Both the position numbers and the translations under genes were made by a program. Below are positions 2,298-48,617 of a DNA stretch of 64,000 bases, piece by piece. Below the pieces are notes generated by a model, which was given only the letters and a program-made list of their open reading frames with translations, made no database searches and was not told where the DNA came from. The stretch comes from a virus. The stretch is taken from positions 24,747 through 88,746 of the IMG/VR virus record IMGVR_UViG_3300020202_000002; one strand, given 5' to 3'. How positions within the stretch are numbered: the first letter of the stretch is position 1; each line of letters begins with the position of its first letter.

Positions 2298-2771
2298 ATG
2301 GCCGCACCAACCCTGACCGCTCGCCAGGCCCCGGCTGGCATCAAACTGCGCGACGGCTTCGCCGCGTTCTACGCCTTCGCACTCGACCCGGACATTTCCA
2401 TCTGGGAAACCGAGGTGCAACTACCTTCCTTCGACGGTGGCGATCCCATCGACACGACGACGATGTGGAACGACGCGTGGATGACGAAGGCGCTTCAGCA
2501 ACTCGTCGACCACGGCGAGGCGTCCGGAGTCTGCGGCTACGACCCGGCCTGCCTCACGCAAATCCTGTCCATTCTGAACCGAAACGGAAGCGTGACGTGT
2601 CACCTGCCCGACACGTCGACGTACACCTTCTGGGGCGGCTTGACCAAGTTCGAGCCGGAAGCGTTCAAGAAGGGCGAATTCCCCACGGCGAACTTCACGA
2701 TTGTCGTCACCAACACCGACACGTCCGGCAACGAAGCCGGCCCCGTGCTGGTCAGCGCAGCCAATACCTAA
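2298..2771 (+). CDS. Major tail tube protein
   Basis: Strong GAGGAG RBS; DGGDPIDTTTM and FWGGLTKFEP motifs; precedes the chaperones and tape measure. Confidence 0.75.
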   Translation: MAAPTLTARQAPAGIKLRDGFAAFYAFALDPDISIWETEVQLPSFDGGDPIDTTTMWNDAWMTKALQQLVDHGEASGVCGYDPACLTQILSILNRNGSVTCHLPDTSTYTFWGGLTKFEPEAFKKGEFPTANFTIVVTNTDTSGNEAGPVLVSAANT

Positions 2772-2842
2772 GCCCTGCGCGGTCGTGAGGCGCACGGAAC
2801 AGAGCCTCCGGCCGCAGGGCGCTTTCAACCGAGGAGAAAGGC

Positions 2843-3304
2843 ATGGAAGAACCGCTTGTTTTCACGGACGCCACGAAGTATCACGAAGAACCCGTCAAAG
2901 TCGACGGCGCGTTGTACACTTTGCGCGAAGCGTTTGGCGACGCCGCTATCAAGTTCAAGAGCGCACAGGCCCGTGCCATGCGCTTTGTCGACGGCAAGCC
3001 AACCCTGATCGAGGGAGCCGCCGAGGTCGAGCCATTGCTGGTTCACCTGTGCCTTTTCGAGTCCTATGGGGACCCCAACAATCCGCGCGAGCGCAACGTG
3101 TCCATGGCCACGATCAAGACGTGGAAAGCGCACGTCATCACTAAGATTTTCGAGCGCGCCAAGAAGATTAGCCGCCTGGACGAGACGCTTACCAGCGCCG
3201 ATGTCCGCAAGAAGATCGCCGAGTTGCAAAAGCAACTTGAAGACATGGAAAGGGCGGAAGAGGAAAAAAACTCGCCGCCTACCGAGCTGGCTGGTTCCAC
3301 CTAG
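2843..3304 (+). CDS. Tail assembly chaperone (gpG-like)
   Basis: Between tube and tape measure; slippery A-AAA-AAC at 3265-3271 near its 3' end. Confidence 0.75.
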   Translation: MEEPLVFTDATKYHEEPVKVDGALYTLREAFGDAAIKFKSAQARAMRFVDGKPTLIEGAAEVEPLLVHLCLFESYGDPNNPRERNVSMATIKTWKAHVITKIFERAKKISRLDETLTSADVRKKIAELQKQLEDMERAEEEKNSPPTELAGST

Positions 3305-3663
3305 CTCGGGAATTCGGCCTTGACCCGTTCGAGATGCAGAGAACGTGGACCAACCGGCAATACATGGAGGCCATGGCATGGCTTGTGGAGCAGCGCAACC
3401 ATCCGACCGTCGATCAGCAGTACCAGATGCAAATCGCCATGCTGGTGGACAGCATCGTACCGCGGATCTTCGGCAGGACGTATCAGGGCAAGCTGCAAGA
3501 CAAGAAGCTCGTGTGGAGAACGGAAGAGGACGACGACCCGCAATCGCTGGAAGAGCGCAAACGGGTCTTCAGCCAGATGATGCTGGCGCGCTGGAGGGCG
3601 GTGGCCGAAGGTGGCGGTAAACGAGCAAGAAGTCGGACGGATGGTCGTACGATTGCTGGGTGA
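3268..3663 (+). CDS. Tail assembly chaperone frameshift extension (gpT-like, -1 frame)
   Basis: The -1 frame is open from the slippery site: LAAYRAGWFHLAREFGLDPFEMQRTWTNRQYMEAMAW... Confidence 0.7.
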   Translation, partial: KLAAYRAGWFHLAREFGLDPFEMQRTWTNRQYMEAMAWLVEQRNHPTVDQQYQMQIAMLVDSIVPRIFGRTYQGKLQDKKLVWRTEEDDDPQSLEERKRVFSQMMLARWRAVAEGGGKRARSRTDGRTIAG

Positions 3664-6289
3664 CTCCAGCAGTTATGAGGCCATGATGCGCCAAGCGGCC
3701 GCCACCACACGCGCCGCCGTCGCCTCCATGGGAACCGCCATGACGGCTGGCATAACCGCTCCGTTCGCTGGCGCTGGCGTGATGGCCGTCAGCGCTGCCG
3801 CGCAGATGGAACAGGCTCAAGTCCAGTTTTCGACCATGCTGCAGTCCGAAGCCAAGGGCATGCAGATGGTCAAGGACCTCATCCAATTCGCGGCTGCCAC
3901 CCCGCTGACGACGCCGGAAGTGACGACGGCGGCTCGCACGCTGCTGCAGTTCGGCGTTGAGGGCGAAAGGGTCATCGAAACGTTGCGCATGCTCGGCGAC
4001 GCTGCCGGCGGCGACTCCCAGCGCTTCCAGTCCATGTCGCTGGCGTTCGGGCAGATGTCCGCGGCCGGCCGGCTGATGGGGCAAGACTTGCTGCAAATGA
4101 TCAATGCCGGTTTCAACCCGCTTCAGGAGATTTCACGGACAACCGGCAAGTCGATGGGGCAACTGAAAAAGGAGATGGAGGATGGCAAGATTTCGGCGGC
4201 GATGGTGACGGCAGCGTTTCGCTCGGCCACGAGTCAAGGCGGGCGATTCTTCAACATGATGGAGAAGCAGTCGCAGACGGTCACTGGCCTGTGGTCCACG
4301 ATGCGCGACAACGCCAGCCTCTTCCTGGTCACGCTGGGCGACATGATCATCAAGCAGCTTCACGTCAAGGACGCCATCAAGGCCGTATCTGCCGCCGCAG
4401 GGGACGTTGGCAACTGGCTCAAGTCGCTGAGCCCGATGGCTCAGAAAGCAATGTTGGCCGTGGCGCTGATCGCATCAACCCTGGGGCCGCTGCTGATCGT
4501 CCTTTCGGCCGTTGGCCCGGCTGTCGTCGCCGGCTTCGGCTTGTTCATGTCGACTGTCCTGCCCATCGTTGGTGTCGTCGGCGTGGCGGTCGCTGCGGTC
4601 GCTCTCTGGGTTCGCTCAGTGGGTGGCCTGGGGCCAGCGTGGGCGCTCGTAGCGGAGAAGGCAGGGGCGGCGTGGGCGTTGATTAAGGACGCGGCCATGT
4701 CGGCATGGACGTGGATCACCACCAACTTCGGCAGCATTGCTTCGTGGATTGCGCCCCTGTTTGCGGGCGCTGGAATAGAGATACTCGCCACGATCACGCT
4801 GATAATCGCGGCAGTGAAGGCAGTCGGAGCAATCTTCACGTACCTCAAGGGTGTTTTCTTCGAGAACTACGATGCCATCAAGGCAGTCAGCGATGGCTAC
4901 TTGACACTCGCTGGGCGCGTGCTGATGGCTATCGGCATCACCAAACTGTTCCTGTTCGCGGCTGGCCTCGTCATTGGGGTTCTTAAGGCTCTCGGCATCG
5001 TCCAGTTGGCCACGAACATTCTGTGGGTCGGCTGGGCTATCAGTTTGGCGACCGTCAAGGGACTCGTCGCCATAGTCACAGGCGTCATGCTGGTTGCTCA
5101 GGCGGCGACGTGGCTGTGGAACGGCGCTCTGACGGTCATGAACATACTGCTCTCGCCGGTCGCCATTCTTGGAGTGGTTGCGGCGATCGGCGTACTGGTG
5201 GCGATTCTCGCTGTCGCCGGCTCGGCGCTCTACGGGCTGTACAGCGCTGGCCAGCAGCTTATCGGCACGCTCACAGGGCTCAGTAACACCACGCTCGGCA
5301 CGCACCTGTCTTCCGTCTTCGGCGAGTGGAAGACGATCCTCACGGATGTGTTCAACCTCGCCAAGTCGGGCGACTTCTCCGGCGCGTTCGAGATGCTGAA
5401 ACTCGGCGCGGACCTGGCGATCAACCAGGTGAAGGACCTGTGGCCGCCCTTGTGGAACTTTATCAGAGATGGTTTCGGGCATTTGTGGACCATCGTCTCG
5501 ACGACGTTCATGGTGGAAATGCAGCGTGCGCTGATCAACGTCAGCAACAGGACACTTGACTTCCTGACAAGTTGGGACAAGACAGGGATGCTCACGAGTG
5601 GCCTGCGATCCGGTGTCGGCACACTGCTCAATAGTTGGAACGCCGGTCTGTCGCAAAGCGAGAACAACGTCAACCGGTCCACCTTCGCGCTGGGCCAGAT
5701 GGCAAATCAGTTTCAGGCGGTCGAATCAGCCGCAACTCAAGCCTCGCGAGCGAACGTCGAGGTGGCCAATCTCGAACGTGAGTACGCGAACTTCTTCCGC
5801 GATCGCGACGCCGCTGACGACATGAATCACTGGGTCGTCAACGCCACGGAACAGTTCGACGAGTTCGGCAATGTCGTCGCCAGTTCGGACGCAGCAAGCC
5901 AAGCCAGCCGTCTCGGCGCGCAAACCGGCGAAGCACTCGCCACCGGGGTCAAGAAGCATGCCGGCCATGCAATGGACAGTTTTCAGGCTGCAGCAGTCGG
6001 CAGTGCCGAAGCCATCGCCCGCATGAATGCCTACCGGGACACCTTCCGGCAGATGGGTTTCTCCGCGAACGCCCTGGCAGGCGGGACGACGCCAGCGACA
6101 ACTCTGGCGGGAGCGAGCACAGCCGCCAGCCCCACGACATTAGCTAACGTGGTATCGCCTCCGGGACGAACCGACAACACCCAAGAACACCTCGCTGTTC
6201 TCAAGGATATCCTGCATCAAGCCAAGCTGCAGACCGCCATCATGCAGCGCGAAACCGGTGTGATTCTGGAGGAAGTGGACCTGGAATGA
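3611..6289 (+). CDS. Tail tape measure protein
   Basis: 892 aa, Ala-rich; tape-measure domain (FAAATP...GQMSAAGRLMGQDLLQM...QSQTVTGLWST) and long hydrophobic stretches. Confidence 0.95.
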   Translation: MAVNEQEVGRMVVRLLGDSSSYEAMMRQAAATTRAAVASMGTAMTAGITAPFAGAGVMAVSAAAQMEQAQVQFSTMLQSEAKGMQMVKDLIQFAAATPLTTPEVTTAARTLLQFGVEGERVIETLRMLGDAAGGDSQRFQSMSLAFGQMSAAGRLMGQDLLQMINAGFNPLQEISRTTGKSMGQLKKEMEDGKISAAMVTAAFRSATSQGGRFFNMMEKQSQTVTGLWSTMRDNASLFLVTLGDMIIKQLHVKDAIKAVSAAAGDVGNWLKSLSPMAQKAMLAVALIASTLGPLLIVLSAVGPAVVAGFGLFMSTVLPIVGVVGVAVAAVALWVRSVGGLGPAWALVAEKAGAAWALIKDAAMSAWTWITTNFGSIASWIAPLFAGAGIEILATITLIIAAVKAVGAIFTYLKGVFFENYDAIKAVSDGYLTLAGRVLMAIGITKLFLFAAGLVIGVLKALGIVQLATNILWVGWAISLATVKGLVAIVTGVMLVAQAATWLWNGALTVMNILLSPVAILGVVAAIGVLVAILAVAGSALYGLYSAGQQLIGTLTGLSNTTLGTHLSSVFGEWKTILTDVFNLAKSGDFSGAFEMLKLGADLAINQVKDLWPPLWNFIRDGFGHLWTIVSTTFMVEMQRALINVSNRTLDFLTSWDKTGMLTSGLRSGVGTLLNSWNAGLSQSENNVNRSTFALGQMANQFQAVESAATQASRANVEVANLEREYANFFRDRDAADDMNHWVVNATEQFDEFGNVVASSDAASQASRLGAQTGEALATGVKKHAGHAMDSFQAAAVGSAEAIARMNAYRDTFRQMGFSANALAGGTTPATTLAGASTAASPTTLANVVSPPGRTDNTQEHLAVLKDILHQAKLQTAIMQRETGVILEEVDLE

Positions 6290-7692
6290 GCGGCACGTAC
6301 CGAGGACCGTTCGGCATCAGCGGCTCGATCGACGCCGAAGGCTACCGCACGTACAAGGTCAAGCACAGGGTGGAATTAGAACCGGGCGAATCCGCCCTGA
6401 CGGCGCTGCTGACTCCGGGCTTGCCGCTGCCTGGGGCTATCTTCTCTCTTGCCTCCATGGGCGTGGCGTCGTCGGAAGTCGACCCGTGGGTCTGGTGTCT
6501 CCCCGAGATGGAAGCCAGCAAACTCGGCCGTGATACCGAAACCGGCGGTATATGGGTCGTTGAACAGACGTTCTCGAACAAGCCACCCAAGCGTTGCGCC
6601 TCGTTCCAGTTCGACAATCCTCTGCTTGAGCCGCAGAAGGTATCCGGCGACTATCGCATGAACCGGGTCGAGGCCACGCACGACATTTACGGTGACCCCA
6701 TCACCAACAGCGCCCACGAGCAGATTCGCGGCCCGCAAGTCGAGTTTGACGACGGCTCGCCCACCATCAAGATCGAACAGAACGTCGCCATTCTTGATCT
6801 GCCACTACTCACGCAGATGCAGAACGCCGTGAACGCCTTTCCGATGTGGGGGCTGCCGGCGCGGACGATTAAGATATCGAAGATCTCCTGGGAGCGAAAA
6901 TTCCATGGGGCCTGCTTCGTCTACTTCACGCGCAAGTTCGAGTTCGACTGTTCCGAGAGAAAACAGCAGCGAATTAAGGGTGCTCCGGCCACGTCATCGT
7001 TCGACCGCGAGGTGGTGGACGAAGGTACGAAGGCACTCCGGGGAAAGTGGGCCTCAAACGGCACATGGGAACTGATCAACATCAATGGTCAACCACCGGA
7101 CCCGTCGAATCCATCGCACTTCGACCGCTACAAGGATAAAAACGGCGAGAACGCGAAGGTCATCCTTGACGGCCACGGCAAGCCCTACATCCCCGAAATC
7201 GAATACGTCCCCGGCAGCGGCAACTGCTCCGAATGCACGTCGACCCCCAAGTATTTCGTCGTGCGCGGCTTCACCGATTTCGAGGCGCGAAACAGCAGTG
7301 CCGTCACGACAAGCATTCGCGGGACACTGTGGAACGACGTGCAGCTGGAATACGTCAGCGGTTGTGATTGGGTGGCCACCGTCGACATGGGTAACAGCCA
7401 GACGGCTAACCTGCAAATCAGCGTCTCGGGCGACACGGCGACGCTGACGATCAGTTTCGCCGGCTACACCTTCGAGTTCGAGGGCGACTTCTCCTGCACC
7501 GGCCAATTTGCCCTGGACGACATCACGAGCGAGAGCCAGTTCTTGTTGAACGACGTGCCAGACAATTTGCCGACGACGGTGCAGATTTCCTCCCCCGGCG
7601 GCGATCCGCCCGGATCGATCAGCGTGCAGTATTACCAGGAAGCCGACTTCAGCCTGCTACGGATTCCGATGGACCTGCAGGTGCAGATTTAG
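6286..7692 (+). CDS. Putative distal tail / baseplate protein with a Cys-containing inserted module
   Basis: Immediately follows the tape measure with ATGA overlap; 468 aa. Confidence 0.55.
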   Translation: MSGTYRGPFGISGSIDAEGYRTYKVKHRVELEPGESALTALLTPGLPLPGAIFSLASMGVASSEVDPWVWCLPEMEASKLGRDTETGGIWVVEQTFSNKPPKRCASFQFDNPLLEPQKVSGDYRMNRVEATHDIYGDPITNSAHEQIRGPQVEFDDGSPTIKIEQNVAILDLPLLTQMQNAVNAFPMWGLPARTIKISKISWERKFHGACFVYFTRKFEFDCSERKQQRIKGAPATSSFDREVVDEGTKALRGKWASNGTWELININGQPPDPSNPSHFDRYKDKNGENAKVILDGHGKPYIPEIEYVPGSGNCSECTSTPKYFVVRGFTDFEARNSSAVTTSIRGTLWNDVQLEYVSGCDWVATVDMGNSQTANLQISVSGDTATLTISFAGYTFEFEGDFSCTGQFALDDITSESQFLLNDVPDNLPTTVQISSPGGDPPGSISVQYYQEADFSLLRIPMDLQVQI

Positions 7693-20933: not shown

Positions 20934-21563
20934 CCATGGAGCGTGCGATGAGCAAGGAACTAGATCTTCTCGCGTCAGGACCTCAGGGAGACTACCAGCA
21001 ATGGTTCGACAGTCTCGCAAAGGCCCATCTTGAAGATCATCCGCCGAGAACCAGAGCGGAAGAGGCCAGCGAAACATACGCAAAGGTGCTTCGCTACATC
21101 GCCTCTCTCCCGTGGTACAGGTGCCTGAGAATACCGTCCATCGTGGACCTAGTGATTCGACGACGGGAGATATTCGACAAGGCTTCCAAGAAGGGGTCAG
21201 GATCTTACTTGGCGTACCTCGAGCTGGCGGCGAAGGGCTACGACAAGTGTCGGTTGACAAAGGAAGAAGCCGACGCCCTGAAGGGGTGTCTGTCATGACA
21301 CCAACAGAAGTCCACGTTCGCAGCACCATGTACACGGCCATCCTGGGATACGTCGCATCGCTCTGTCACGGCGTCAACGCCGCAGTTTATTGGAAGTTTG
21401 GACAAGACGGTGCACTTGCAGGCATATGGCTCGCTGGCTGCATTGCCTGGGGGCCGTCCGCAATCATCAATACGTCGTCCTGGCGTTTCCAGCAAAAATG
21501 GAGAAACGATGACTACATGGCGCAAGTGGCGTCGAAAGTCAACCACATCAAGGTGCATCGGCA

Positions 21564-25059: not shown

Positions 25060-25710
25060 ATGCTGAACGGAATCAAAAAAGCCGCCGCCTTCTTCTGCCA
25101 CCAGGACGACGAAATGGTGGCGGCTGGCACGCTTCATCGCCTTGCCAGCGCCGGCTGCGAGGTGCATGTCGTATCGTTCTCGCCATGCGCCACGATTAAT
25201 GACCGCATGGGAACCGAAGTATCGTCTCGTCTTGTTCTGCCGGAATGGCACCTATCGATGGACCTGATCGGCGTAGGGCAGGAGCAACGGCACTTTCTCA
25301 ACTACACGCCAAGCGTGAGCATTGCTGATCGTCGTCAGGACGTGGCCAACTATGTATTCGACTTCTGCGAGCGCGAGCGGCCGGACGTGGCGTTCGTCTT
25401 GTCGCCAGAGGATGAAAACACGGCGCATGCAGTGGTCGGCGTCGAGTGTGAGCGGGTCATGCGCGGCCGCGTTCCCATGGTGGTTCGGTGTAACTTCGCG
25501 TGGAACTATTCCATCGGCAGGCCGAACCTGTTCGTGGCGCTCTCGGACAAGGACCTGGACATCAAGCGGCGCGTGATCAATGCCTACCAATCGCAGAAAT
25601 TTAGGTACGACTACGGTGCCATGTTGATGGCGTACTGCATCGGCGATGGCAAGAGCGTCAAGGTCGCGGCGGCGGAGCGTTTCGAGATCATCAGGAGCGT
25701 CGTTACATGA
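25060..25710 (+). CDS. PIG-L/LmbE-family deacetylase
   Basis: HQDDE motif, AH, K...INAYQSQ. Confidence 0.75.
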   Translation: MLNGIKKAAAFFCHQDDEMVAAGTLHRLASAGCEVHVVSFSPCATINDRMGTEVSSRLVLPEWHLSMDLIGVGQEQRHFLNYTPSVSIADRRQDVANYVFDFCERERPDVAFVLSPEDENTAHAVVGVECERVMRGRVPMVVRCNFAWNYSIGRPNLFVALSDKDLDIKRRVINAYQSQKFRYDYGAMLMAYCIGDGKSVKVAAAERFEIIRSVVT

Positions 25711-26366
25711 GCCACATCGTCATTGCCGGCGCATCCGGGGCCATCGGCACGGCTCTCGTTCGGAAGTATCTGGACGAAGGGCATGTGGTGACGGCACTGA
25801 TCAATAGAAGCTACCTTGAATTCGGACACAAGCATTTGCACGAGAGGCTTATCAACACTGACGAGATTGACGTGCCCCAAAAGGTAGACGCTCTGATAAC
25901 GCTGACTGCCGACACGAGGAACAAGAAACTTGGCAAGATGGACATCAACGAGTGGGAATCGGTGCTACGCTCGACTCTGACATCACCGTTTCAGTGCATA
26001 AACGCGCTGGCGTCAACGTTGGTAACCGGCGCGTCCATTGTCGTCGTCGGTTCTATTGTCGGCAGCCTTGGGGGGTACGGCTGCGCGAACTACGCCGCGG
26101 CCAAGGCCGGACTCGTGGGCCTTGTCCGCGCGGCTGCAAACGAGCTGGCCGGCCGCAAGATCCGCGTGAACCTGCTTGAGTTGGGCTACGTCAACGCCGG
26201 CATGGGCGAGCGTCTGTCGGACGACATCAAGGCCAAGGTGACCGAGACGATTCCGCTGAAGCGGTTTGCTGAGGTTGACGAGGTGTTGCACGCGATCGAG
26301 TTCTTGAGGACGGCCACGTACATGACTGGCAACACGCTAACTGTAGCAGGAGGGCTAAGGGCATGA
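25707..26366 (+). CDS. SDR-family (FabG-like) oxidoreductase
   Basis: GASGAIG, NYAAAKAG (YxxxK), IPLKRF, YMTG. Confidence 0.85.
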   Translation: MSHIVIAGASGAIGTALVRKYLDEGHVVTALINRSYLEFGHKHLHERLINTDEIDVPQKVDALITLTADTRNKKLGKMDINEWESVLRSTLTSPFQCINALASTLVTGASIVVVGSIVGSLGGYGCANYAAAKAGLVGLVRAAANELAGRKIRVNLLELGYVNAGMGERLSDDIKAKVTETIPLKRFAEVDEVLHAIEFLRTATYMTGNTLTVAGGLRA

Positions 26367-33089: not shown

Positions 33090-34220
33090 ATGAGGACGAT
33101 TCAGGGAGCGGCGTGCTGCATCGTGGGTGGTGCTGGATTTTTAGGCAGCCATGTTGTCAACCATTTGGTGAACGACAGGTCCTGCAAAGTTCTCGTCATC
33201 GACAACCTGGTGGCCGGTCGGCGTGAATTCGTGCACCCCAAGGCAACGTTCAAGCACGCCGACATCACCGCGAGCGAGGAGTACCTTCGTCAGTTGTTCG
33301 AGCAGCACAAGATCAAGTATGTCCTGAACTACGCCGCTTGGCCGTACGTCGTTGATTCATTCTCGCGGCCGCTGCACGTTTTCAACGTGAATGCGACCGG
33401 AGCGCTCAAGATCATCAACGCAGCGCAGGCGGCCGGGTGCAAGGGCATCCTCCAGATCAGCAGTGCGGAGATCTACGGTGATGCTGGACAAGTTCGCCAC
33501 GCCACTATGCGTGGCAACCCGTTGGACCCTGACTCGTGCGAAATCGTTGGATATAAGTACGAAGGCATCAAGATAGGCGAGACATCTCGCGTTGCGCCCC
33601 ACAGCAGCTACGGCGCAGCCAAAGCCGCCATTGATGCCATGGTCCAAGTTCGCTGGCGAGAAGCGAAGACGCCCTGCATTGCGCTCCGCCAGTTTAACGC
33701 AGTGGGGGAGCGCGAGACGCACGAGTACGTGGTGCCAGAGATAATCCGGCAACTCGATAAGCAGCGTCGACTCATAAGGTACACAAGTGCGCGCGCTGGC
33801 AAAAACAGATTCGCAACGCCAGAGAACGCCACCGTCAACCTTGGCAATGACAGTCTTCGTGACTTCATTTACGCCGGCGACCAGGCCCGCATGGCGGTCG
33901 AACTGCTCGAAAAGGGCCAGTTCGGCGAGGTCTACAACCTGGGAAGCGAAACCGGCATCAAGATCTACGACCTCGCGAAACTTATCGGCAAACTGATGGG
34001 CTTCGAGAACGTGACGGTTGAGAAGGATCCCTCCCGCGTGCGACCCTGGGAAATCTGGCATCTCCAGAGCGACAACAGCAAGATTCACAGCGTCATCGAC
34101 GCGCGGCCGCAGGTGGACCTTGAGGAAGCGCTGCGCCGGACGATCGCGTGGTATGAGAGCAACGGCCGACGATGGCCATGGGAAGCAAGGAGCGCGGATG
34201 GAATCCTATCAGCGTCTTGA
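33090..34220 (+). CDS. NAD-dependent nucleotide-sugar epimerase/dehydratase
   Basis: GGAGFLGSH, SSAEIYG, YGAAK, RDFIY, GEVYNLGS, LEEALRRTIAWY. Confidence 0.9.
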   Translation: MRTIQGAACCIVGGAGFLGSHVVNHLVNDRSCKVLVIDNLVAGRREFVHPKATFKHADITASEEYLRQLFEQHKIKYVLNYAAWPYVVDSFSRPLHVFNVNATGALKIINAAQAAGCKGILQISSAEIYGDAGQVRHATMRGNPLDPDSCEIVGYKYEGIKIGETSRVAPHSSYGAAKAAIDAMVQVRWREAKTPCIALRQFNAVGERETHEYVVPEIIRQLDKQRRLIRYTSARAGKNRFATPENATVNLGNDSLRDFIYAGDQARMAVELLEKGQFGEVYNLGSETGIKIYDLAKLIGKLMGFENVTVEKDPSRVRPWEIWHLQSDNSKIHSVIDARPQVDLEEALRRTIAWYESNGRRWPWEARSADGILSAS

Positions 34221-43789: not shown

Positions 43790-44128
43790 ATGGTCGCTCA
43801 AGGTCGCTCTGTTCGTATCTGCCATTGCTGCGGCAGTCCTGTTCAGGACGCCTTGTCGCACGAAGCCGCGGTCGTGCTGGGAGAACTGCGTGGGCTGATG
43901 TCGGAGATTCGCCAGCAGATCGAGCCGCAACCCGAGGCGACGACCATCATCGATAACGTTCGCAAGCTGTCGGCACGACTTCGCGCCGCTGCTGATTCGA
44001 TGGCGGTCAGCCGTGACATCATGTCCGACAACCCGGACGATCTGATTTCCGACTGGATCGCATCGAATCGGTCGCTGGCCGAGCAGTTGTTGGCGGTAAC
44101 GGTCGAGACGAAGACGTTGGTGTTTTGA
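43790..44128 (+). CDS. Hypothetical protein
   Basis: AAGGAG RBS, CxCC N-terminus, helical. Confidence 0.55.
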   Translation: MVAQGRSVRICHCCGSPVQDALSHEAAVVLGELRGLMSEIRQQIEPQPEATTIIDNVRKLSARLRAAADSMAVSRDIMSDNPDDLISDWIASNRSLAEQLLAVTVETKTLVF

Positions 44129-44142
44129 AACCCGGTGCACGG

Positions 44143-44199
44143 CCTGCCCCCGATCGGCAGGAGTCCGAGGCTCGGATGCGACGGGGGCAGGTTCTTTTT
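44143..44199 (+). terminator. Possible intrinsic terminator / structured element
   Basis: CCTGCCCCC (44143-44151) pairs with GGGGGCAGG (44183-44191), followed by TTCTTTTT; large loop with an inner hairpin. Confidence 0.5.
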
Positions 44200-44635
44200 C
44201 ACGAGAGCAACAGGATGGCCGGTAGCGGTATTAGCGGGCGAGTCTCGCGCCCATTCAGTGGCGAGTTAGTCTCGCTGGATGGCGTGGCAACAGACTGCGG
44301 TAACGACGTAAATAAGCACACCGGACCGGCAGGTTCGGGTGTCCCTCGTCGTCCAGTCGCCACGCACGAAGGCGATGCACTCTCGCTTAAGGCCACGCCC
44401 TCAGGGGCAAAACACGCGGGAGATGTGTCGATGGCCTCCCGCAACCATCACCGACCGCGCCGGCCATCCTATTGCTCTCGACGGAAGCGTGGTGCGAGGA
44501 AGTTTTCTCTTCCATGCCTTTACTGTGACAAGCCAGTGTCCATGAATGCTGGCCGTTTCATCGAGTTGTTCGACGCCGACAAGCGTCCGGTATGCAGAAG
44601 GTGCCTACCTTACAGTTTCTATTTGGAGGCTTTTC

Positions 44636-45178
44636 ATGACAGCAACAGCAGCAAAAGTGGCGAAGTTGAAAGACCTGGCTGGTAAGGCCGGCCAGTCGAT
44701 CTACGAGAGACTCGGCATCGTGCAGGAAGTTCTCGCCGACAAGGAATACGTCGCGGCCCACTACGGAGACGAGTCCAAGGCATTGGAAACTCTCGAAGCC
44801 GATGTGTTCGGCGACTTGTGCGGCTCGCGGTCCCTGACGGAACTTCTGGAAGTTCGCAAAGCGTTTCCCAGCGCCGAGCAGTGGAAGCAGCACAAGTGGA
44901 ACCTTTCGCGGCTACTGGCCGAGTGGGACGAACGCCGTCTTGCTGCTCGCGACGAGAGCGAGAAGCCGGAACGAAAGTCGCCCGTATCTCGCAAGGAACA
45001 CGAGACGGTCTTGCAGAAGCTTGCCGAGACGGAGCACGTCGCCGAGCGAAACGCCAAGACGGTCGACGAGCTGCGCGAGAAGCTTCGTCAGGTCGAGCAC
45101 GAGAACATCGCATTGCGGGCCAAGGTGGAGGAACTTGAGAGGCTGCTACAGGGCAGTTTGTCGCGAGCGGCAAGGTGA
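44636..45178 (+). CDS. Hypothetical protein with C-terminal coiled coil, directly upstream of the tracrRNA/CRISPR locus
   Basis: GGAGG RBS; 180 aa; heptad pattern ELREKLRQVEHENIALRAKVEELERLL. Confidence 0.75.
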   Translation: MTATAAKVAKLKDLAGKAGQSIYERLGIVQEVLADKEYVAAHYGDESKALETLEADVFGDLCGSRSLTELLEVRKAFPSAEQWKQHKWNLSRLLAEWDERRLAARDESEKPERKSPVSRKEHETVLQKLAETEHVAERNAKTVDELREKLRQVEHENIALRAKVEELERLLQGSLSRAAR

Positions 45179-45179
45179 T

Positions 45180-45339
45180 GGACCAAACCCAGGTAGTCGC
45201 TCGCGTTTCGCAAGAGACGTGAGCGACTACGATTGTGACTCGCACTGGTCTCACAGCTATCGGAAACGGTGATGAAAACGCTGGGCTCTCGCGACGTGAC
45301 GACAAAACGTGGATGGCAATGCGGTGGCGACAGGTGGCC
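45180..45339 (+). ncRNA. Predicted tracrRNA / scaffold RNA
   Basis: 17-bp stem with GCAA tetraloop and two G-U pairs (45193-45230); anti-repeat GTCTCACAGCTATC (45248-45261) complementary to the repeat 3' end GATGGTGAGAC with a 3-nt bulge; GAAA-loop hairpin next to it. Ends are approximate. Confidence 0.65.
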
Positions 45340-45666
45340 GTAGCAGAAGGTTGAGATCAGCAGGTGATGGTGAGACGCTAAGGCGATTCTGACGACCTCG
45401 CAATTCCTTGAGTAGCAGAAGGTTGAAAGCAGAAGGTGATGGTGAGACTAGGACAAGCACGCAAACCTACAGGGAAGGCAACGGTGCAGAAGGTTGGGAT
45501 CAAAAGGTGATGGTGAGACGGTCATGAACAAGGCTCTCGAAGCGACAGGCGCGTTGGGTGCAGAAGGTTTGATCGAAGTGGTGATGGCGAGGCTCGGGCC
45601 GACAGTTTGCAGGACAGTCAGGCGGTTGGTATCGCAGAAGGCTTAGTGAAAAGGTGAGAGCATGGG
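45340..45666 (+). CRISPR. CRISPR array part 1: 5 repeats (last degenerate), 4 spacers
   Basis: 37-bp repeats at 45340, 45412, 45483, 45557 and a degenerate copy at 45631; consensus GGTGCAGAAGG-N11-AGGTGATGGTGAGAC; unique spacers of 35, 34, 37 and 37 bp. Confidence 0.9.
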
Positions 45667-47047
45667 ACAACCTGAAACGACAAAGTGTGTCCTGAAGCTG
45701 CGCCTTGGTGCCAGCCTGACTGGTCCGACCAAGCGGATGGCACGCGACCTACACCAAGCGTCCCTTCTGTACAACCAGTGCCGAAATGCTATCGTGCGGG
45801 CCTGGGAACGCAGTGCGGAAGACAACCCAAGCGAAACGTTCGCGATGTTCGTATGCCGTTGTGGTGCTGCCGAAAGGCGAGCCTCTCGCAAGGCCGCTGG
45901 AGAATCCAAGGTCCGCGAGCACTGTACTTGCGAAGACAACCCGTGTGAGGTGGCCAGACAAGCGTGCCCATTGCTGGCTGCCAAGATCACCACGTCTTGC
46001 GCCACGCAGGAAGTGTCGGCCAAACTGCGGTCCAAGCTCCCCTGGAACCGACCGAACAAGGCACACCGTTACATATGGCAGGGCATACTCGCCAACCAGG
46101 TTGCGCGGCCATGCTATCGCGGCTCGGAACTGCCGGTGCCTTGCCAGGACGCCAAGCTTTCGCTCACGGATAGCGGATACACGCTCAGTTTCCCGGTGTG
46201 GTCCTTGGCATCCGGTCGGCAGCACCGTAATTTCCTGTGCCGCATCCCGACGAAGCGGCTCACTCGCGGCTACAAAAGAATCCTTTTCAACATCGTCAAG
46301 GGCGAGTGGAATCTGTGCGATTCTCGCTTGCAGTTCCACGAACCCAGATCGCGGCAAAAGAAGGGTTTCTGGGCCATCCACCTTGTCTACGATCGCAAGC
46401 AGGATCCGATCGCCGGATTGGACAGCAAGCAGGTCGCCAGGCTTACTCTCCAGCCCAAGGACGCCAAGAAGCCTTTCGATGTCAGCACGGATGGTGTTTT
46501 CAAGCCATGGCTGCTGGGTGACGTGGATGTGTATCTCGGCTTCCTGTCTCGTTTGGAGACTCGCCGATTGGAGATGCGCCTACGTCACAAGGAGAAGGGG
46601 TCGGGGCGGCGTGGCCATGGGCGAGGTCGAACCGAAAAGGCGATTCGTCCGGCGACTCGCAAGGCGCGCAACATCGCTCGTCTGTTCCAGTGGCGCATCG
46701 TCGCGCAACTCGTGCGGTTCTGCGAGCGGTACGGATGTGGCGTCGTTGAGTTTAGCGAGCCGAAACAAGGGCAGAAGAATGCCAGCTGGTTTGCAGTGCC
46801 TGGTCGGCCGTGGACATGGGCGGACTTTATGAGCCGGCTGAAGCACAAGCTGTGGGTGAACGGCATCGATCTACGCGAGAGCGAAGGTGGTGAACAGAAA
46901 CAGGCACGTCGCTCGCGTGGCCCAAAGGTTAATGGTGGCACTGGTAACGGCAAGATGCCACACAATGGAGGCGAAGTGGCGAACGGAAAGAATGGGGTCG
47001 CTCGCAAGACGGGGCGAAAAGCTGGACGGGGACGCGACGAAAAGTAA
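45662..47047 (+). CDS. cas12f: Nuclease-dead Cas12f-like (type V-F / TnpB superfamily) protein
   Basis: Collinear with AsCas12f1 as recalled: GILANQVARPCYRG, KRILFNIVKGEW, WAIHLVYD, LETRRLEM...GSGRRGHGRGR, YGCGVVEFSEP, WTWADFMSRL...GI. RuvC-I Asp is Thr262, RuvC-II Glu is Ser365, zinc ribbon and RuvC-III are absent. Confidence 0.85.
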   Translation: MGQPETTKCVLKLRLGASLTGPTKRMARDLHQASLLYNQCRNAIVRAWERSAEDNPSETFAMFVCRCGAAERRASRKAAGESKVREHCTCEDNPCEVARQACPLLAAKITTSCATQEVSAKLRSKLPWNRPNKAHRYIWQGILANQVARPCYRGSELPVPCQDAKLSLTDSGYTLSFPVWSLASGRQHRNFLCRIPTKRLTRGYKRILFNIVKGEWNLCDSRLQFHEPRSRQKKGFWAIHLVYDRKQDPIAGLDSKQVARLTLQPKDAKKPFDVSTDGVFKPWLLGDVDVYLGFLSRLETRRLEMRLRHKEKGSGRRGHGRGRTEKAIRPATRKARNIARLFQWRIVAQLVRFCERYGCGVVEFSEPKQGQKNASWFAVPGRPWTWADFMSRLKHKLWVNGIDLRESEGGEQKQARRSRGPKVNGGTGNGKMPHNGGEVANGKNGVARKTGRKAGRGRDEK

Positions 47048-47052
47048 TGGCA

Positions 47053-47238
47053 GGTGCAGAAGGTTGGAAGCAGAAGGTGATGGTGAGACGAACACGTCGA
47101 ACACGGTCACGTACTTCTCCGAGGATGGTGCAGAAGGTGTCGAGTCAAAGGTGATGGTGAGACGGCCTGATTGCGCAGCCAAGTAAATGAACGCAGAGGC
47201 GGGTTCAGAAGGTTTCGAGTCAAAGGTGATGGTGAGAC
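47053..47238 (+). CRISPR. CRISPR array part 2: 3 repeats, 2 spacers
   Basis: 37-bp repeats at 47053, 47127 and 47202, same family and orientation as part 1; spacers of 37 and 38 bp. Confidence 0.9.
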
Positions 47239-47351
47239 GTGTATGAGCAACGACAAACGAACCTGGCTATCCACGTTGGCCAGAGTGGCCAGCGCCTTGC
47301 GATGGATAGCGAAACTGTTCGTGTGGTGAAGCCGGAAATGGAGGTCCCAAC

Positions 47352-47558
47352 ATGCTGGTTCTGGCGCGTCGAATCGAGGAAGAGTTGATCATCAACAACA
47401 ACATCACTGTGAAGGTGATCGAGTTGGGCCGAGGCCAGGTCAAGCTGGGCATAACCTGCGACCGCAACATTCCGGTTTATCGCAGGGAACTGGTCAAGAC
47501 GCAGGACCAGGTGAAGACGCTCTGGGGAACGGTTCCCGTTGGAGACGCCGATGCCTGA
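47352..47558 (+). CDS. csrA: CsrA/RsmA-family RNA-binding regulator
   Basis: MLVLARRIEEELIINNNITVKVIELGRGQVKLGITCDRNIPVYRREL; GGAGG RBS. Confidence 0.85.
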   Translation: MLVLARRIEEELIINNNITVKVIELGRGQVKLGITCDRNIPVYRRELVKTQDQVKTLWGTVPVGDADA

Positions 47559-47862
47559 CCTAAGCCGCCTAACTGAACGTCAGAAGGCCATCTACGAGTT
47601 CGTGCGCGGCATCATCATCAAGCGCGGCTACGGACCAACGGTGCGCGAAATCGGCGATGCGTTCGACATCAGCTCGCCAAACGGAGTCAGCGTTCATCTT
47701 CGATCGCTCCAGAAGAAGGGTTTGATTCATCGCAACAAGGGCGAGGCCCGCGCCATAACGATCGTCGGCATGGAACTGAGCGCCGCGCCGCCGTGCCGGT
47801 GCCCCAGGTGCGGCCACGTTATCGGAGAGCCGGTGGAGATGGCGGAGGTGTCCGGTGTCTGA
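47551..47862 (+). CDS. LexA-like DNA-binding domain with C-terminal CxCxxC, no peptidase domain
   Basis: LTERQKAIYEF...GYGPTVREIG..F.ISSPNGV..HL.SLQKKGLI.R....RAI; about 103 aa. Confidence 0.8.
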   Translation: MPDLSRLTERQKAIYEFVRGIIIKRGYGPTVREIGDAFDISSPNGVSVHLRSLQKKGLIHRNKGEARAITIVGMELSAAPPCRCPRCGHVIGEPVEMAEVSGV

Positions 47863-48193
47863 CCTGCAACGAAATCTGTTCGGCAACGACCCAGACCTGA
47901 CGCCGACGGTGTTCGCGCAGCGGCACAGCCGGACCAGCGTCGAAGCTGGCGAGAAGATCAAGCCGGTGCTGAACTTCCTGGAGCGGAAGGTGCTGGAATT
48001 CTTCCAGGCAAAGGGAGATGCCGGCGCGACCGACGAAGAGGCCCAGGAAGGCACCGGTCTGGGAGGTAGCACAGAAAGACCGCGGCGGACCTCGCTGGTT
48101 GAGCACGGTTTACTCAGGGACAGCGGACGAACGAGGAGAACTCGGAGCGGAAGGCAGGCGGTGGTGTGGATCTACATCGCTCAGGAGGAATGA
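47855..48193 (+). CDS. Winged-HTH phage protein
   Basis: TSVEA...VLEF....GATDEE...RPRRTSL...GLLRDSG.TR.TRSGR.AVVW. Confidence 0.65.
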   Translation: MSDLQRNLFGNDPDLTPTVFAQRHSRTSVEAGEKIKPVLNFLERKVLEFFQAKGDAGATDEEAQEGTGLGGSTERPRRTSLVEHGLLRDSGRTRRTRSGRQAVVWIYIAQEE

Positions 48194-48462
48194 CCATGAG
48201 CAGGAACGGCCAACGAACCCCGGAACAGATATTCGGCATCAAGCCGGAGCACGCGGCTGAACTGCTGGAGAAACTGACGCCGCGCGAGAAGGAAGTTGCG
48301 GCACTGATGGCGGCCGGCTGGACGAACTCGACGATCGCAGCGCGGCTCGACATCAGCAAGAAAACGCTCGACATCCACAGGGGCAAGGTGAAGCGCGGCC
48401 TTGGCTGTCCGATCAACGGCATCGGTCGCATCGTATTCGCGAGCATGTTTGCGCAGGAGTGA
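48190..48462 (+). CDS. LuxR/GerE-type HTH protein
   Basis: LTPREKEVAALMAAGWTNSTIAARLDISKKTLDIHRGKVKRGLG. Confidence 0.85.
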   Translation: MTMSRNGQRTPEQIFGIKPEHAAELLEKLTPREKEVAALMAAGWTNSTIAARLDISKKTLDIHRGKVKRGLGCPINGIGRIVFASMFAQE

Positions 48463-48617
48463 GTGAAGCAATCCCGGCGCCTACCGGTCTGTCTCCATCG
48501 GCAGGAGGGGGGAAGCAGCGGACGCCGGCTCTCCGCGTGGAAACCGGCAACCTAGTTGTTACCCCGCCATGTCAGCCGGGGTGGTCCCGGCGACATTGGC
48601 GGGAGGGACTGATTGTC

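What the first reader, a model, noticed from the sequence alone, without database searches (positions are those of the whole stretch)
45631..47089. The cas gene sits inside its own array like a giant spacer, and a degenerate repeat supplies its ribosome-binding site
Seen: repeat 5 (45631, ATCGCAGAAGG-CTTAGTGAAA-AGGTGAGAGC-ATG) occurs at normal spacing after a 37-bp spacer. Its 3' end has lost GATGGTGAGAC, and its AAGGTGAG acts as a Shine-Dalgarno just before ATG 45662. The stop codon (47045-47047) is 5 nt before repeat 6. Inference: pre-crRNA and cas mRNA are one transcript, so crRNA maturation at repeats 4 and 6 would cut out the mRNA and couple protein level to guide processing. Loss of the tracrRNA-pairing end in repeat 5 would also avoid a guide against the start of the gene itself.
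Basis: partly seen in the sequence, partly recalled or inferred. Interest (0 to 1): 0.7.

Follow-up and report, generated by a model that had tools for sequence, protein, structure and literature searches.

The report
Phage dead-Cas12f gene embedded in its array
A soil phage carries a small, nuclease-dead Cas12f-like gene that sits between two halves of its own CRISPR array, directly behind a decayed repeat that provides its ribosome-binding site, and related phages keep the same repeat-then-gene layout, so it looks like a built-in way of expressing guides and protein together.

Summary
Seven 37-nt repeats (four upstream, three downstream) flank a 461-aa ORF (45662-47047). An eighth, decayed repeat (45631-45661) lies in phase, abuts the ATG and supplies an AGGTGA Shine-Dalgarno. 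The stop codon is 5 nt before repeat 6. Two Logan assemblies reproduce the locus without a difference, so it is not a misassembly.

The protein is a C-terminally truncated Cas12f-like protein. It lacks the RuvC-I Asp, the zinc finger and RuvC-III, as does its whole family (142 members aligned). The window is part of a complete 88.7-kb phage record without Cas1 or Cas2.

Four of five distinct homologous loci (29-62% protein identity) have repeats 0-24 nt upstream of the start codon and more repeats downstream. Only one locus is one-sided, so a single loss is the most parsimonious history. In one relative, solo repeats and mini-arrays also precede other phage genes.

Co-transcription of guides and mRNA is therefore well supported by comparison. 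No RNA data exist, so processing-coupled dosage and the tracrRNA argument remain untested; no anti-repeat exceeded shuffled controls.

I rate it a new variant of a known kind (CRISPR-associated dead Cas12f), with an unusual gene-in-array architecture. This scan noted the same stretch before, but only in first-reader notes on this same genome, none followed up, and none on other DNA.

The parts
44125..44685 (+). ORF (P0155) whose C-terminal part is a small Cys4 zinc ribbon (LPCxxC...RPxCxxC). It is the counterpart of the small zinc-ribbon ORF that overlaps the 3' end of the cas-like gene in L002, L003, L006 and L019.
   Evidence: tblastn of the L006 and L002 zinc-ribbon peptides hits G0 69243-69350, which is window 44497-44604 (E 1.9e-5 and 0.003). 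Translation. No Pfam family.
44636..45178 (+). Conserved coiled-coil protein gene, the upstream neighbour of the dead-Cas12f-like gene in all five loci.
   Evidence: Alignment A5 of four loci at 25-30% identity. L019 is 60% identical to L006. Start 44636 has a GGAGG SD at -9.3 kcal/mol, against -3.1 for 44546. No Pfam or PHROG family.
45179..45339 (+). Non-coding pre-array region. Its last ~60 nt (45282-45339) are homologous to the element that precedes the main array in L002, L003 and L006. It could be a leader, a tracr-like RNA or a processing element; this is unresolved.
   Evidence: Alignments A3 and A6. RNAalifold predicts 16 pairs, 9 with a compensatory change, in 4 sequences. A 17-bp hairpin at 45193-45230 appears in the fold. 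No Rfam match.
45340..45593 (+). Array half 1. Repeats R1-R4 lie at 45340-45376, 45412-45448, 45483-45519 and 45557-45593, with spacers S1-S3 of 35, 34 and 37 nt. R4 has 2 changes in its last 14 nt.
45594..45630 (+). Spacer S4 (37 nt) between R4 and the decayed R5.
   Evidence: No self-target in the phage genome beyond chance.
45631..45661 (+). Decayed repeat R5 (31 nt), in phase with the array. Its AAGGTGAG serves as the Shine-Dalgarno for ATG 45662.
45662..47047 (+). Gene for a 461-aa, C-terminally truncated, nuclease-dead Cas12f-like protein (P0001).
   Evidence: PADLOC Cas12u3 1.6e-11 and Cas12f 9e-11. PDB Cas12f chains at 1.8e-7 with the single sequence and 9.3e-18 with the profile. Catalytic positions.
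47053..47238 (+). Array half 2. Repeats R6-R8 lie at 47053-47089, 47127-47163 and 47202-47238, with spacers S6 (37 nt) and S7 (38 nt).
47239..47329 (+). Sequence in the spacer position behind the last repeat. A 28-codon ORF starts 4 nt after R8 (ATG 47243) and runs to a stop codon ending at 47329. The CsrA gene follows at 47352.
   Evidence: Read. SD-like pairing at -10.0 kcal/mol. Not conserved or tested further.

Best explanation
The locus is a compact, phage-borne derivative of a type V-F CRISPR system.

The effector is a truncated Cas12f-like protein that can no longer cut DNA. It has no RuvC-I Asp, no zinc-finger or target-nucleic-acid-binding domain, and no RuvC-III. It therefore most likely acts as an RNA-guided DNA binder, a silencer of target genes.

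In this family the guide arrays are not a separate unit. They lie in the leaders and intergenic gaps of one co-oriented operon: zinc-ribbon protein, coiled-coil protein, array, effector, array, CsrA and so on. Genes occupy 'spacer positions', each starting 0-35 nt behind a repeat.

Guides and effector mRNA are therefore made from one precursor transcript. In the window, the gene-proximal repeat is the decayed trailer end of array half 1. A short deletion has brought its AGGTGA to SD distance from the ATG.

Shown: anatomy, family-wide loss of catalytic parts, conservation of the layout, and absence of Cas1/Cas2.

Inferred: single transcript, DNA binding without cleavage, and silencing of other phages or of own genes.
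For: Protein:
- It matches Cas12f chains over residues ~140-404 and PADLOC Cas12u3/Cas12f.
- In 142 aligned family members, the column that pairs with the RuvC-I Asp holds D in 3 of 142.
- The tail behind G401 has a median of 31 aa (maximum 100), and 0 of 142 tails have two CxxC motifs.
- GHG 318-320 and E366-P367 are conserved.
- The family is large: 159 representatives at E<=1e-30.

Phage context:
- The record is 88,746 bp with direct terminal repeats and is rated 100% complete.
- Neighbours are an HTH protein, CsrA, a LexA DNA-binding domain and an exonuclease.
- No Cas1 or Cas2 in 3 of 3 phage records.

Layout:
- 4 of 5 loci are split.
- The identity matrix makes one loss in L003 the most parsimonious history.
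- In the L006 phage, 6 of 8 repeats that are not internal to an array are followed within 40 nt by an ORF of >=100 aa. Random positions do so 29% of the time (P=0.009).
- Two of its arrays sit just behind a TATAAT-like box and in front of a gene.
- The window has no promoter-like or terminator-like site inside the locus.

Non-cutting use:
- One spacer of the L003 phage matches its own genome 38 of 38.
- Window spacer S3 has a 21-nt seed match inside a large ORF of an unrelated viral contig.
Against: - There is no RNA evidence of any kind. No RNA run was listed, so a single transcript is inferred only.
- The promoter scan covers sigma-70-type sites only, and the host is unknown.
- L003 works with a one-sided array, so the split is not obligatory.
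- Gene order in the window is permuted relative to the other four loci (zinc ribbon upstream, leader-like element before half 1). The window has therefore been rearranged at least once.
- Only five DNA loci could be fetched for a family of more than 150 clusters.
- Nuclease death is inferred from sequence.
- E366 may be a retained RuvC-II Glu.
- Only 1 of 3 window spacers probed gave a partial hit, so the targets are essentially unknown.
Confidence: 0.62

Rival explanations
1. Autogenous control. The repeat in front of the gene makes the effector's own mRNA look like a crRNA, with the 5' handle followed by the SD, AUG and first codons in the guide position. Excess effector binds this leader, hides the ribosome-binding site (or alters mRNA stability), and so titrates its own synthesis to the number of free guides. 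The decayed R5 is then a deliberately weaker copy of the binding site.
For: A repeat ends 0-24 nt before the start codon in 4 of 5 loci, so the SD and AUG always fall within the first ~30 nt behind the handle. The same arrangement precedes the coiled-coil gene and other genes in the L006 phage. In L019 the upstream repeats differ from the downstream ones in the 5' half but keep the 3' 19 nt, which is the part expected to form the handle.
Against: No binding or expression data exist. L003 lacks any upstream repeat; its gene is coupled to the coiled-coil gene through an overlapping TGATG. The repeat's 3' end is intact in some loci and altered in others, so no consistent 'weakened operator' pattern emerges. 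Plain co-transcription explains the layout without any feedback.
Confidence: 0.2
2. Neutral by-product of recombination. CRISPR repeats recombine easily. The gene, or half an array, was moved by repeat-repeat recombination, and the layout has no function beyond being tolerated. R5 is simply the usual degenerate terminal repeat of an array.
For: Terminal repeats of arrays commonly decay, and R4 and R5 decay progressively towards the gene. Gene order differs between the window and the other loci. L003 is one-sided. Repeats within the window differ a good deal in their cores, suggesting an old, non-acquiring array.
Against: The split is kept across 29-62% protein identity in 4 of 5 loci. The repeat always lies close to the start codon and in the same orientation. 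In the L006 phage repeats precede several unrelated genes.
Confidence: 0.13
3. Anti-CRISPR decoy. The dead Cas12f-like protein soaks up crRNA or tracrRNA of a host type V-F system, and the arrays are bait or remnants.
For: Phage-borne cas homologues can inhibit host CRISPR systems (preprint 10.1101/2023.06.24.545427; only two passages seen, on type I-B). The protein is nuclease-dead.
Against: Each lineage has its own co-varying repeat and up to ~40 unique spacers. A conserved three-gene module accompanies it. The host and its CRISPR type are unknown.
Confidence: 0.04
4. Assembly artefact. The two array halves were joined wrongly around the gene.
For: None found.
Against: Two Logan contigs (9.8 kb and 88.6 kb) span 44900-47600 with no difference, joint or gap. 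Relatives show the same layout.
Confidence: 0.01

Closest known systems
CRISPR-associated nuclease-dead Cas12f (dCas12f) cluster mentioned by Hoffmann et al., Nature 2026 (PMC13472631; passages of the Results and the Extended Data Fig. 1 legend read)
   Same: Cas12f-like proteins with C-terminal truncations that remove part of the RuvC site. They are encoded next to CRISPR arrays and proposed to repress transcription.
   Different: Those examples are described from bacterial genomes, for example a Chitinophagaceae MAG targeting an efflux promoter. The passages I read do not mention a phage origin, a gene inside the array, a coiled-coil or zinc-ribbon partner, or solo repeats before genes. I could not compare sequences because supplements are closed, so whether this is the same clade is unknown.
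dCas12f-sigmaE RNA-guided transcription activators (same paper; PDB 9n9c)
   Same: Truncated, dead Cas12f fold. The profile hit to 9n9c has E 1.8e-8.
   Different: No sigma-factor gene was found among the ten neighbouring ORFs scanned. Here there are multi-spacer arrays. Similarity to active Cas12f (9nzq, 9.3e-18) is stronger than to 9n9c, which suggests a separate inactivation.
TldR, TnpB-like nuclease-dead repressors of temperate phages (10.1101/2023.11.30.569447 and PMC13418256; search listing and abstracts only)
   Same: Phage-borne, nuclease-dead members of the TnpB/Cas12 superfamily, used as RNA-guided transcription factors.
   Different: As I recall, TldRs use one fixed omega-RNA-like guide next to the gene, not a repeat-spacer array. 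P0001 scores only 22 bits against the guided_TnpB model, whose cut-off is 100.
Regulatory mini-arrays / cr-like RNAs with a degenerate distal repeat (Shmakov et al. preprint 10.1101/2023.03.03.530964; passages read)
   Same: A repeat-like element with a decayed partner next to a cas gene, proposed to autoregulate effector expression.
   Different: Those guides act in trans on the cas promoter through partial spacer-target pairing. Here the gene itself lies in the spacer position of a full array, and no partial self-target was found.
Phage-encoded compact type V systems (Cas12j/CasPhi, Cas-lambda, Cas12r, phage Cas12m; listings, passages on MvCas12m)
   Same: Single small effector plus array on a phage genome, with no cas1/cas2.
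   Different: As recalled or read, those effectors keep the RuvC triad (MvCas12m: D305, E463, D555) and have an array beside the gene, not around it.

Membership tests
Cas12f (type V-F effector) | Sequence similarity of the WED/RuvC core to known Cas12f | tested here: met
   PDB Cas12f chains: 7wju 1.8e-7 with the single sequence; 9nzq 9.3e-18, 7wju 4.7e-13 and 7c7l 1.2e-11 with the family profile. PADLOC Cas12u3 1.6e-11 and Cas12f 9.1e-11. No Pfam hit.
Cas12f (type V-F effector) | RuvC catalytic triad (Asp-Glu-Asp) | tested here: not met
   The RuvC-I Asp aligns with T262, and D occurs there in 3 of 142 members. The RuvC-II Glu aligns with S365, or one position over with the conserved E366 (115 of 142), so that residue is ambiguous. 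The RuvC-III region is absent.
Cas12f (type V-F effector) | C-terminal zinc-finger (target-nucleic-acid-binding) domain followed by RuvC-III | tested here: not met
   The tail behind G401 has a median of 31 aa and a maximum of 100. None of 142 tails has two CxxC motifs. P0001's tail is Gly/Lys/Arg-rich and has no Cys.
Cas12f (type V-F effector) | Adjacent CRISPR array with lineage-specific repeats | tested here: met
   5 of 5 loci have arrays of 36-37-nt repeats.
Cas12f (type V-F effector) | tracrRNA with an anti-repeat | tested here: inconclusive
   The best repeat-to-flank duplexes are not better than those of shuffled repeats. A conserved pre-array element with a covarying stem exists, but its role is open.
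Cas12f (type V-F effector) | Adaptation genes cas1/cas2 (present in many, not all, V-F loci) | tested here: not met
   PF01867 and PF09827 are absent from 3 of 3 phage records, while the control genomes were detected.
Naturally nuclease-dead Cas12f (dCas12f, Hoffmann et al. 2026) | C-terminal truncation removing part of the RuvC site while keeping a Cas12f-like core | tested here: met
Naturally nuclease-dead Cas12f (dCas12f, Hoffmann et al. 2026) | Operonic association with an ECF sigma factor (rpoE), for the sigmaE-linked clade | tested here: not met
   No sigma-factor domain in the ten neighbouring ORFs scanned against Pfam.
Naturally nuclease-dead Cas12f (dCas12f, Hoffmann et al. 2026) | Same clade as the published CRISPR-associated dCas12f cluster | not testable with these tools
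   Their sequences are in figures and supplements that I could not see.
TldR (TnpB-like nuclease-dead repressor) | Single fixed omega-RNA-type guide, no CRISPR array | tested here: not met
   Multi-spacer arrays in all five loci. The guided_TnpB model scores 22.2 bits against a cut-off of 100.

The most novel reading that the evidence does not exclude
In this phage family, CRISPR repeats have been recruited as punctuation and control elements of messenger RNAs. Genes, including the effector's own, are expressed as 'giant spacers' of pre-crRNA-like transcripts. The dead Cas12f-like protein, perhaps with its coiled-coil and zinc-ribbon partners, binds the repeat-derived handle at the 5' end of these mRNAs to set their maturation, stability or translation. 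Under this reading the system is an RNA-level regulon and autoregulatory loop as well as a DNA-targeting silencer.
Probability: 0.2. Interest if true: 0.85.

Novelty: new variant of a known kind. Interest (0 to 1): 0.7.

Why it matters
If the layout works as inferred, it is a natural design in which one promoter delivers a miniature (about 400-460 aa) programmable DNA binder together with a multiplex guide set. The guide repeats double as 5' leaders of genes.

That would bear on three questions. First, how phages use CRISPR parts offensively or for self-regulation without cutting; a 38/38 self-matching spacer is tolerated in a relative. Second, how effector and guide dosage are balanced. Third, how compact multiplex CRISPRi cassettes could be built.

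It also marks out a large, uncharacterised clade (159 clusters at E<=1e-30) with two conserved partner proteins of unknown function.

Tried and rejected
Leads that gave nothing or could not be followed:

- RNA evidence. No RNA holder was listed for 45180-47350, so expression, ends and processing could not be examined.
There is no fold of P0001 and no test of binding to the coiled-coil protein.
Loci came only from the search for related loci.
  - Viral scans: one search gave none, 30 gave L003-5, 31 gave none, 61 gave L006, and 113 gave L019.
  - Genome scans gave none.
  - The metagenome scan 21 gave L002.
  - These scans depend on short peptide patterns, so absence from genomes is weak evidence.
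- Other databases. No match for the locus in 50,697 GenBank phages. No Rfam family in 44000-48500.
- tracrRNA. Repeat-to-flank duplex energies were not above shuffled repeats in the window, L002 or L003.
- Self-targets. None of the window's spacers or of the pre-array element has one.
- Spacer seeds. S6 and S1 had no exact 20-nt match in IMG/VR. The S3 hit is a 21-nt seed only. Its ORF has no PHROG family and no homologue in the three phages.
- Zinc-ribbon ORFs have no Pfam family. The Atlas gave only viral hypothetical clusters and a weak DUF3102 lead for the coiled-coil protein.
- Literature. Searches found no paper describing a cas gene in the spacer position of its array. That is the extent of my claim that it is not in print. 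Supplements were closed.
- Misassembly is rejected.
- The idea that the repeat is itself a promoter is rejected. No -10/-35-like box lies in the window's repeats, and in the L006 phage a separate TATAAT box precedes arrays.
Full report
**What is there**

Window 45340-47238 holds seven copies of a 37-nt direct repeat on the + strand. The consensus is GGTGCAGAAGG, then an 11-nt variable core, then AAGGTGATGGTGAGAC. Four copies lie at 45340-45593 and three at 47053-47238, with a period of 71-75 nt and unique spacers of 34-38 nt.

Between the two groups lies a single ORF, 45662-47047 (461 aa, P0001). Exactly one period (74 nt) after repeat 4, behind a 37-nt spacer, lies a 31-nt decayed copy, R5 (45631-45661). 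It keeps GCAGAAGG and AAGGTGA but carries a 5-6-nt internal deletion in the 3' part.

A combined repeat pattern finds R5, the seven true repeats and only one other site on the + strand of the whole 88.7-kb genome. Shuffles give 0-1 hits. R5's alignment score is reached by 0.37% of random 31-mers.

R5 ends at the base before ATG 45662. An in-frame TGA at 45647-45649 excludes an earlier start, and homologues align from about residue 5. AAGGUGAG pairs with a generic anti-SD at -8.5 kcal/mol. The random mean is -4.4, and other genes of the window score -2.2 to -13.5.

The stop TAA 47045-47047 is 5 nt before repeat 6. The only nuance is that the 3' end of R5 is shortened and altered rather than cleanly lost.

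**Not an artefact**

The window is bases 24747-88746 of an IMG/VR virus record of 88,746 bp. The record has direct terminal repeats and is rated complete.

Logan contigs of two soil-metagenome runs from two studies span 44900-47600 in one piece with no difference or gap: 9,810 nt at depth 64 and 88,643 nt at depth 17. They may be the source samples, but they come from a different assembler.

**The protein**

- Pfam finds nothing.
- NCBIfam's guided_TnpB model gives 22 bits, against a cut-off of 100.
- PADLOC gives Cas12u3 1.6e-11 and Cas12f 9e-11.
- The single sequence hits AsCas12f-type chains at 1.8e-7 over residues 141-404.
- A ten-sequence family profile hits Cas12f chains at 9.3e-18 (9nzq), 4.7e-13 (7wju) and 1.2e-11 (7c7l). 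It hits the sigmaE-linked dead Cas12f 9n9c at 1.8e-8.

In these alignments the RuvC-I Asp pairs with T262. The protein ends about 55 residues after the helix that precedes the zinc finger in Cas12f, with a Gly/Lys/Arg-rich, Cys-free tail.

An exhaustive profile search finds 850 representatives at E<=1e-3 and 159 at E<=1e-30. I aligned 142 of the 154 proteins held, dropping 12 outside 360-560 aa. The results:

- The RuvC-I column holds Asp in 3 of 142.
- The tail behind G401 has a median of 31 aa and a maximum of 100.
- None of the tails has two CxxC motifs.
- GHG (318-320) and E366-P367 are conserved.

E366 may be the retained RuvC-II Glu; the alignment is ambiguous by one position.

The whole family is thus a truncated Cas12f-like protein lacking two of the three catalytic elements.

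**Relatives and their layout**

Four further distinct loci were found. Their proteins are 29-32% identical to P0001. Among themselves, L002-L003 are 47% identical, L006-L019 are 62%, and the rest are about 40%.

1. L002 (metagenome, 3.1 kb). One decayed and two good repeats lie at 1062-1237, followed by a 16-nt leader and the gene at 1254-2675. After a 190-nt gap come at least four identical repeats from 2864.
2. L003-L005 (one 37.7-kb phage, identical in three samples). The gene overlaps the stop of the upstream coiled-coil gene (TGATG). There are no upstream repeats, and 15 identical repeats follow a 285-nt gap. This locus is one-sided.
3. L006 (61-kb phage).
   - Three repeats, then a 35-nt leader and the coiled-coil gene.
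   - A half repeat plus 13 repeats follow. The last has an altered 3' end (TAACGAG for TTGCGAG).
   - Then come a 24-nt leader, the gene at 3995-5278 and an overlapping zinc-ribbon ORF.
   - At least 24 repeats follow.
4. L019 (9.1-kb contig).
   - The coiled-coil gene is followed by six repeats with 30-nt spacers.
   - Then come a 20-nt leader, the gene at 2654-3913 and the zinc-ribbon ORF.
   - Two repeats follow, then a 30-nt leader and a small ORF.
   - The upstream repeats differ from the downstream ones in the 5' half but share the 3' 19 nt.

So four of five loci have the gene between two array parts, with a repeat ending 0-24 nt before the start codon. Given the identity matrix, one loss in L003 is more parsimonious than three gains.

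The SD is supplied by the repeat itself only in the window; elsewhere it lies in the short leader.

**A wider pattern in one relative**

In the L006 phage (record G002) the repeat also occurs away from the main locus on the + strand, at 33478, 36118, 38264, 49847 and 57871. A four-repeat mini-array lies on the - strand at 25678-25927.

Gene starts follow at +8, +21, +3/+15 and +11 nt for four of these. A 45-codon Cys-rich ORF starts at +20 behind 36118.

With a crude ORF criterion, 6 of 8 repeats that are not internal to an array are followed within 40 nt by an ORF of >=100 aa. Random positions do so 29% of the time (binomial P=0.009).

A TATAATAGGGAG box lies just upstream of the 36118 repeat and of the minus-strand mini-array. 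In the latter case it is followed by a 3' half repeat. In that phage, arrays and single repeats therefore sit between promoter and gene. No such extra repeats exist in the window's phage or in the L003 phage.

**The module around the gene**

- Coiled-coil protein. A coiled-coil protein gene (window 44636-45178) precedes the locus in all five cases.
- Zinc-ribbon protein. A small Cys4 zinc-ribbon ORF overlaps the 3' end of the gene in L002, L003, L006 and L019. In the window it forms the C-terminal part of ORF 44125-44685, upstream of the coiled-coil gene. The window's gene order is therefore permuted.
- Pre-array element. The ~60 nt before the window's first repeat (45282-45339) are homologous to the element before the main downstream array in the other loci. 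RNAalifold predicts a stem of 16 pairs there, nine with a compensatory change, though from four sequences only. Its role as leader, tracr-like RNA or processing signal is open.
- Anti-repeat. Duplex energies between repeat and flanks never exceeded shuffled repeats.
- Adaptation genes. No Cas1 or Cas2 is encoded in the three phage records.
- Operon context. The neighbours are regulators and recombination genes on the same strand: an HTH protein, CsrA, a LexA DNA-binding domain and an exonuclease. No promoter-like site, and no + strand terminator-like site, lies between 44040 and 48000.

**What it targets**

The window's spacers have no match in their own genome beyond chance.

Of three 20-nt seeds searched in IMG/VR, S3 matched one unrelated 44.6-kb viral contig. 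The match is 21 nt and then diverges, but the reading frame stays similar (VMNKAL...), inside an ORF of more than 1,700 aa with no PHROG family. S6 and S1 gave nothing.

In the L003 phage one spacer matches its own genome 38 of 38, on the opposite strand, inside ORF 4222-4803. A perfect self-match is what one expects to be tolerated only by a non-cutting effector.

**Most likely mechanism**

I read the locus as a phage-borne, type V-F-derived, nuclease-dead guide system. Its arrays are interleaved with the genes of one operon, so guides and effector mRNA come from the same precursor. The window's R5 is the decayed trailer repeat of array half 1, and it has been co-opted as the ribosome-binding site.

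- Shown: the anatomy, the family-wide loss of catalytic parts, conservation of the layout, the lack of adaptation genes, and the absence of assembly error.
- Inferred: a single transcript, DNA binding without cleavage, and silencing of other phages or of own genes.

The more specific idea is that the effector binds the repeat-derived handle on its own mRNA and so controls its own synthesis, and in the L006 phage that of other genes. This fits the constant position of SD and AUG just behind a repeat, but it is untested; I give it about 0.2. A neutral recombination by-product remains possible (about 0.13). A decoy role or an artefact is unlikely.

**Comparison with what is known**

Hoffmann et al. 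(PMC13472631; passages read) mention a cluster of CRISPR-associated, C-terminally truncated dead Cas12f proteins in bacteria that may repress transcription. This family is of that kind. I cannot tell whether it is the same clade.

It is not a sigmaE-linked dCas12f, since no sigma gene is nearby. It is not a TldR, since it has arrays and a weak TnpB score.

Regulatory mini-arrays with a degenerate distal repeat (preprint 10.1101/2023.03.03.530964; passages read) are the nearest idea for R5. Those act in trans on promoters.

My four literature searches found no description of a cas gene in the spacer position of its own array, nor of repeats used as gene leaders. Supplements were closed and most subscription papers are not in the library.

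**Verdict**

I class it as a new variant of a known kind, with interest 0.7.

Noticed in passing
G002 (record of L006/L020): 33478, 36118, 38264, 49847 and 57871 (+); 25678-25927 (-): Solo repeats and a four-repeat mini-array lie outside the main locus. Most end 3-21 nt before a gene start. One of these genes is a Dam-like methyltransferase, named by my recognition of its N-terminal motif, not by a search.
   Followed up: partly
G002: just 5' of the 36118 repeat and of the minus-strand mini-array: A shared TATAATAGGGAG box, which looks like a -10 element. In the mini-array it is followed directly by a 3' half repeat, as if the transcript started with a ready-made handle.
   Followed up: no
G001 (record of L003), reverse-complement coordinates 21431-21468 and 4702-4739: One array spacer matches the phage's own genome 38 of 38 on the opposite strand, inside ORF 4222-4803. 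Two other spacers of the same array are identical to each other (37 of 37).
   Followed up: partly
Window 44497-44604; L006 5251-5571; L019 from 3880; L003 ~6290-6420; L002 ~2566-2700: A small Cys4 zinc-ribbon protein (LPCxxC...RPxCxxC) is conserved in all five loci. In four it overlaps the 3' end of the dead-Cas12f-like gene in another frame. It may be a split-off remnant of the Cas12f zinc finger, but that is speculation.
   Followed up: partly
Window 45282-45339 and the regions before the main arrays of L002, L003, L006 and L019: A conserved ~60-nt element (..CTCGC.A....G.CG..AA...GCGA..) with a predicted covarying stem lies directly before the first repeat.
   Followed up: partly
Window 45520-45556 (spacer S3) and L015 869-889 (-): A 21-nt seed match lies inside an ORF of more than 1,700 aa, of unknown function, on an unrelated 44.6-kb viral contig. 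The protein sequence stays similar beyond the match.
   Followed up: partly
Window 45340-47238; L006 array: The repeats have conserved ends but a variable core, about 11 nt in the window and about 5 nt in L006. The L003 array has 15 near-identical repeats. The variable core suggests old arrays that no longer acquire spacers.
   Followed up: partly
L019 2268-2633 versus 4211-4319: The upstream array has a different repeat 5' half and 30-nt spacers (66-nt period). The downstream array has 37-nt spacers. Only the 3' 19 nt of the repeat are shared.
   Followed up: no
Window 47243-47329: A 28-codon ORF starts 4 nt behind the last repeat, before the CsrA gene (47352-47558) and a LexA DNA-binding-domain gene (47539-47862).
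   Followed up: no
Window 45860-45960 (P0001 residues ~64-95): A Cys-rich insertion (CxC...CxC..C) in the N-terminal part is absent from most homologues in alignment A1.
   Followed up: no
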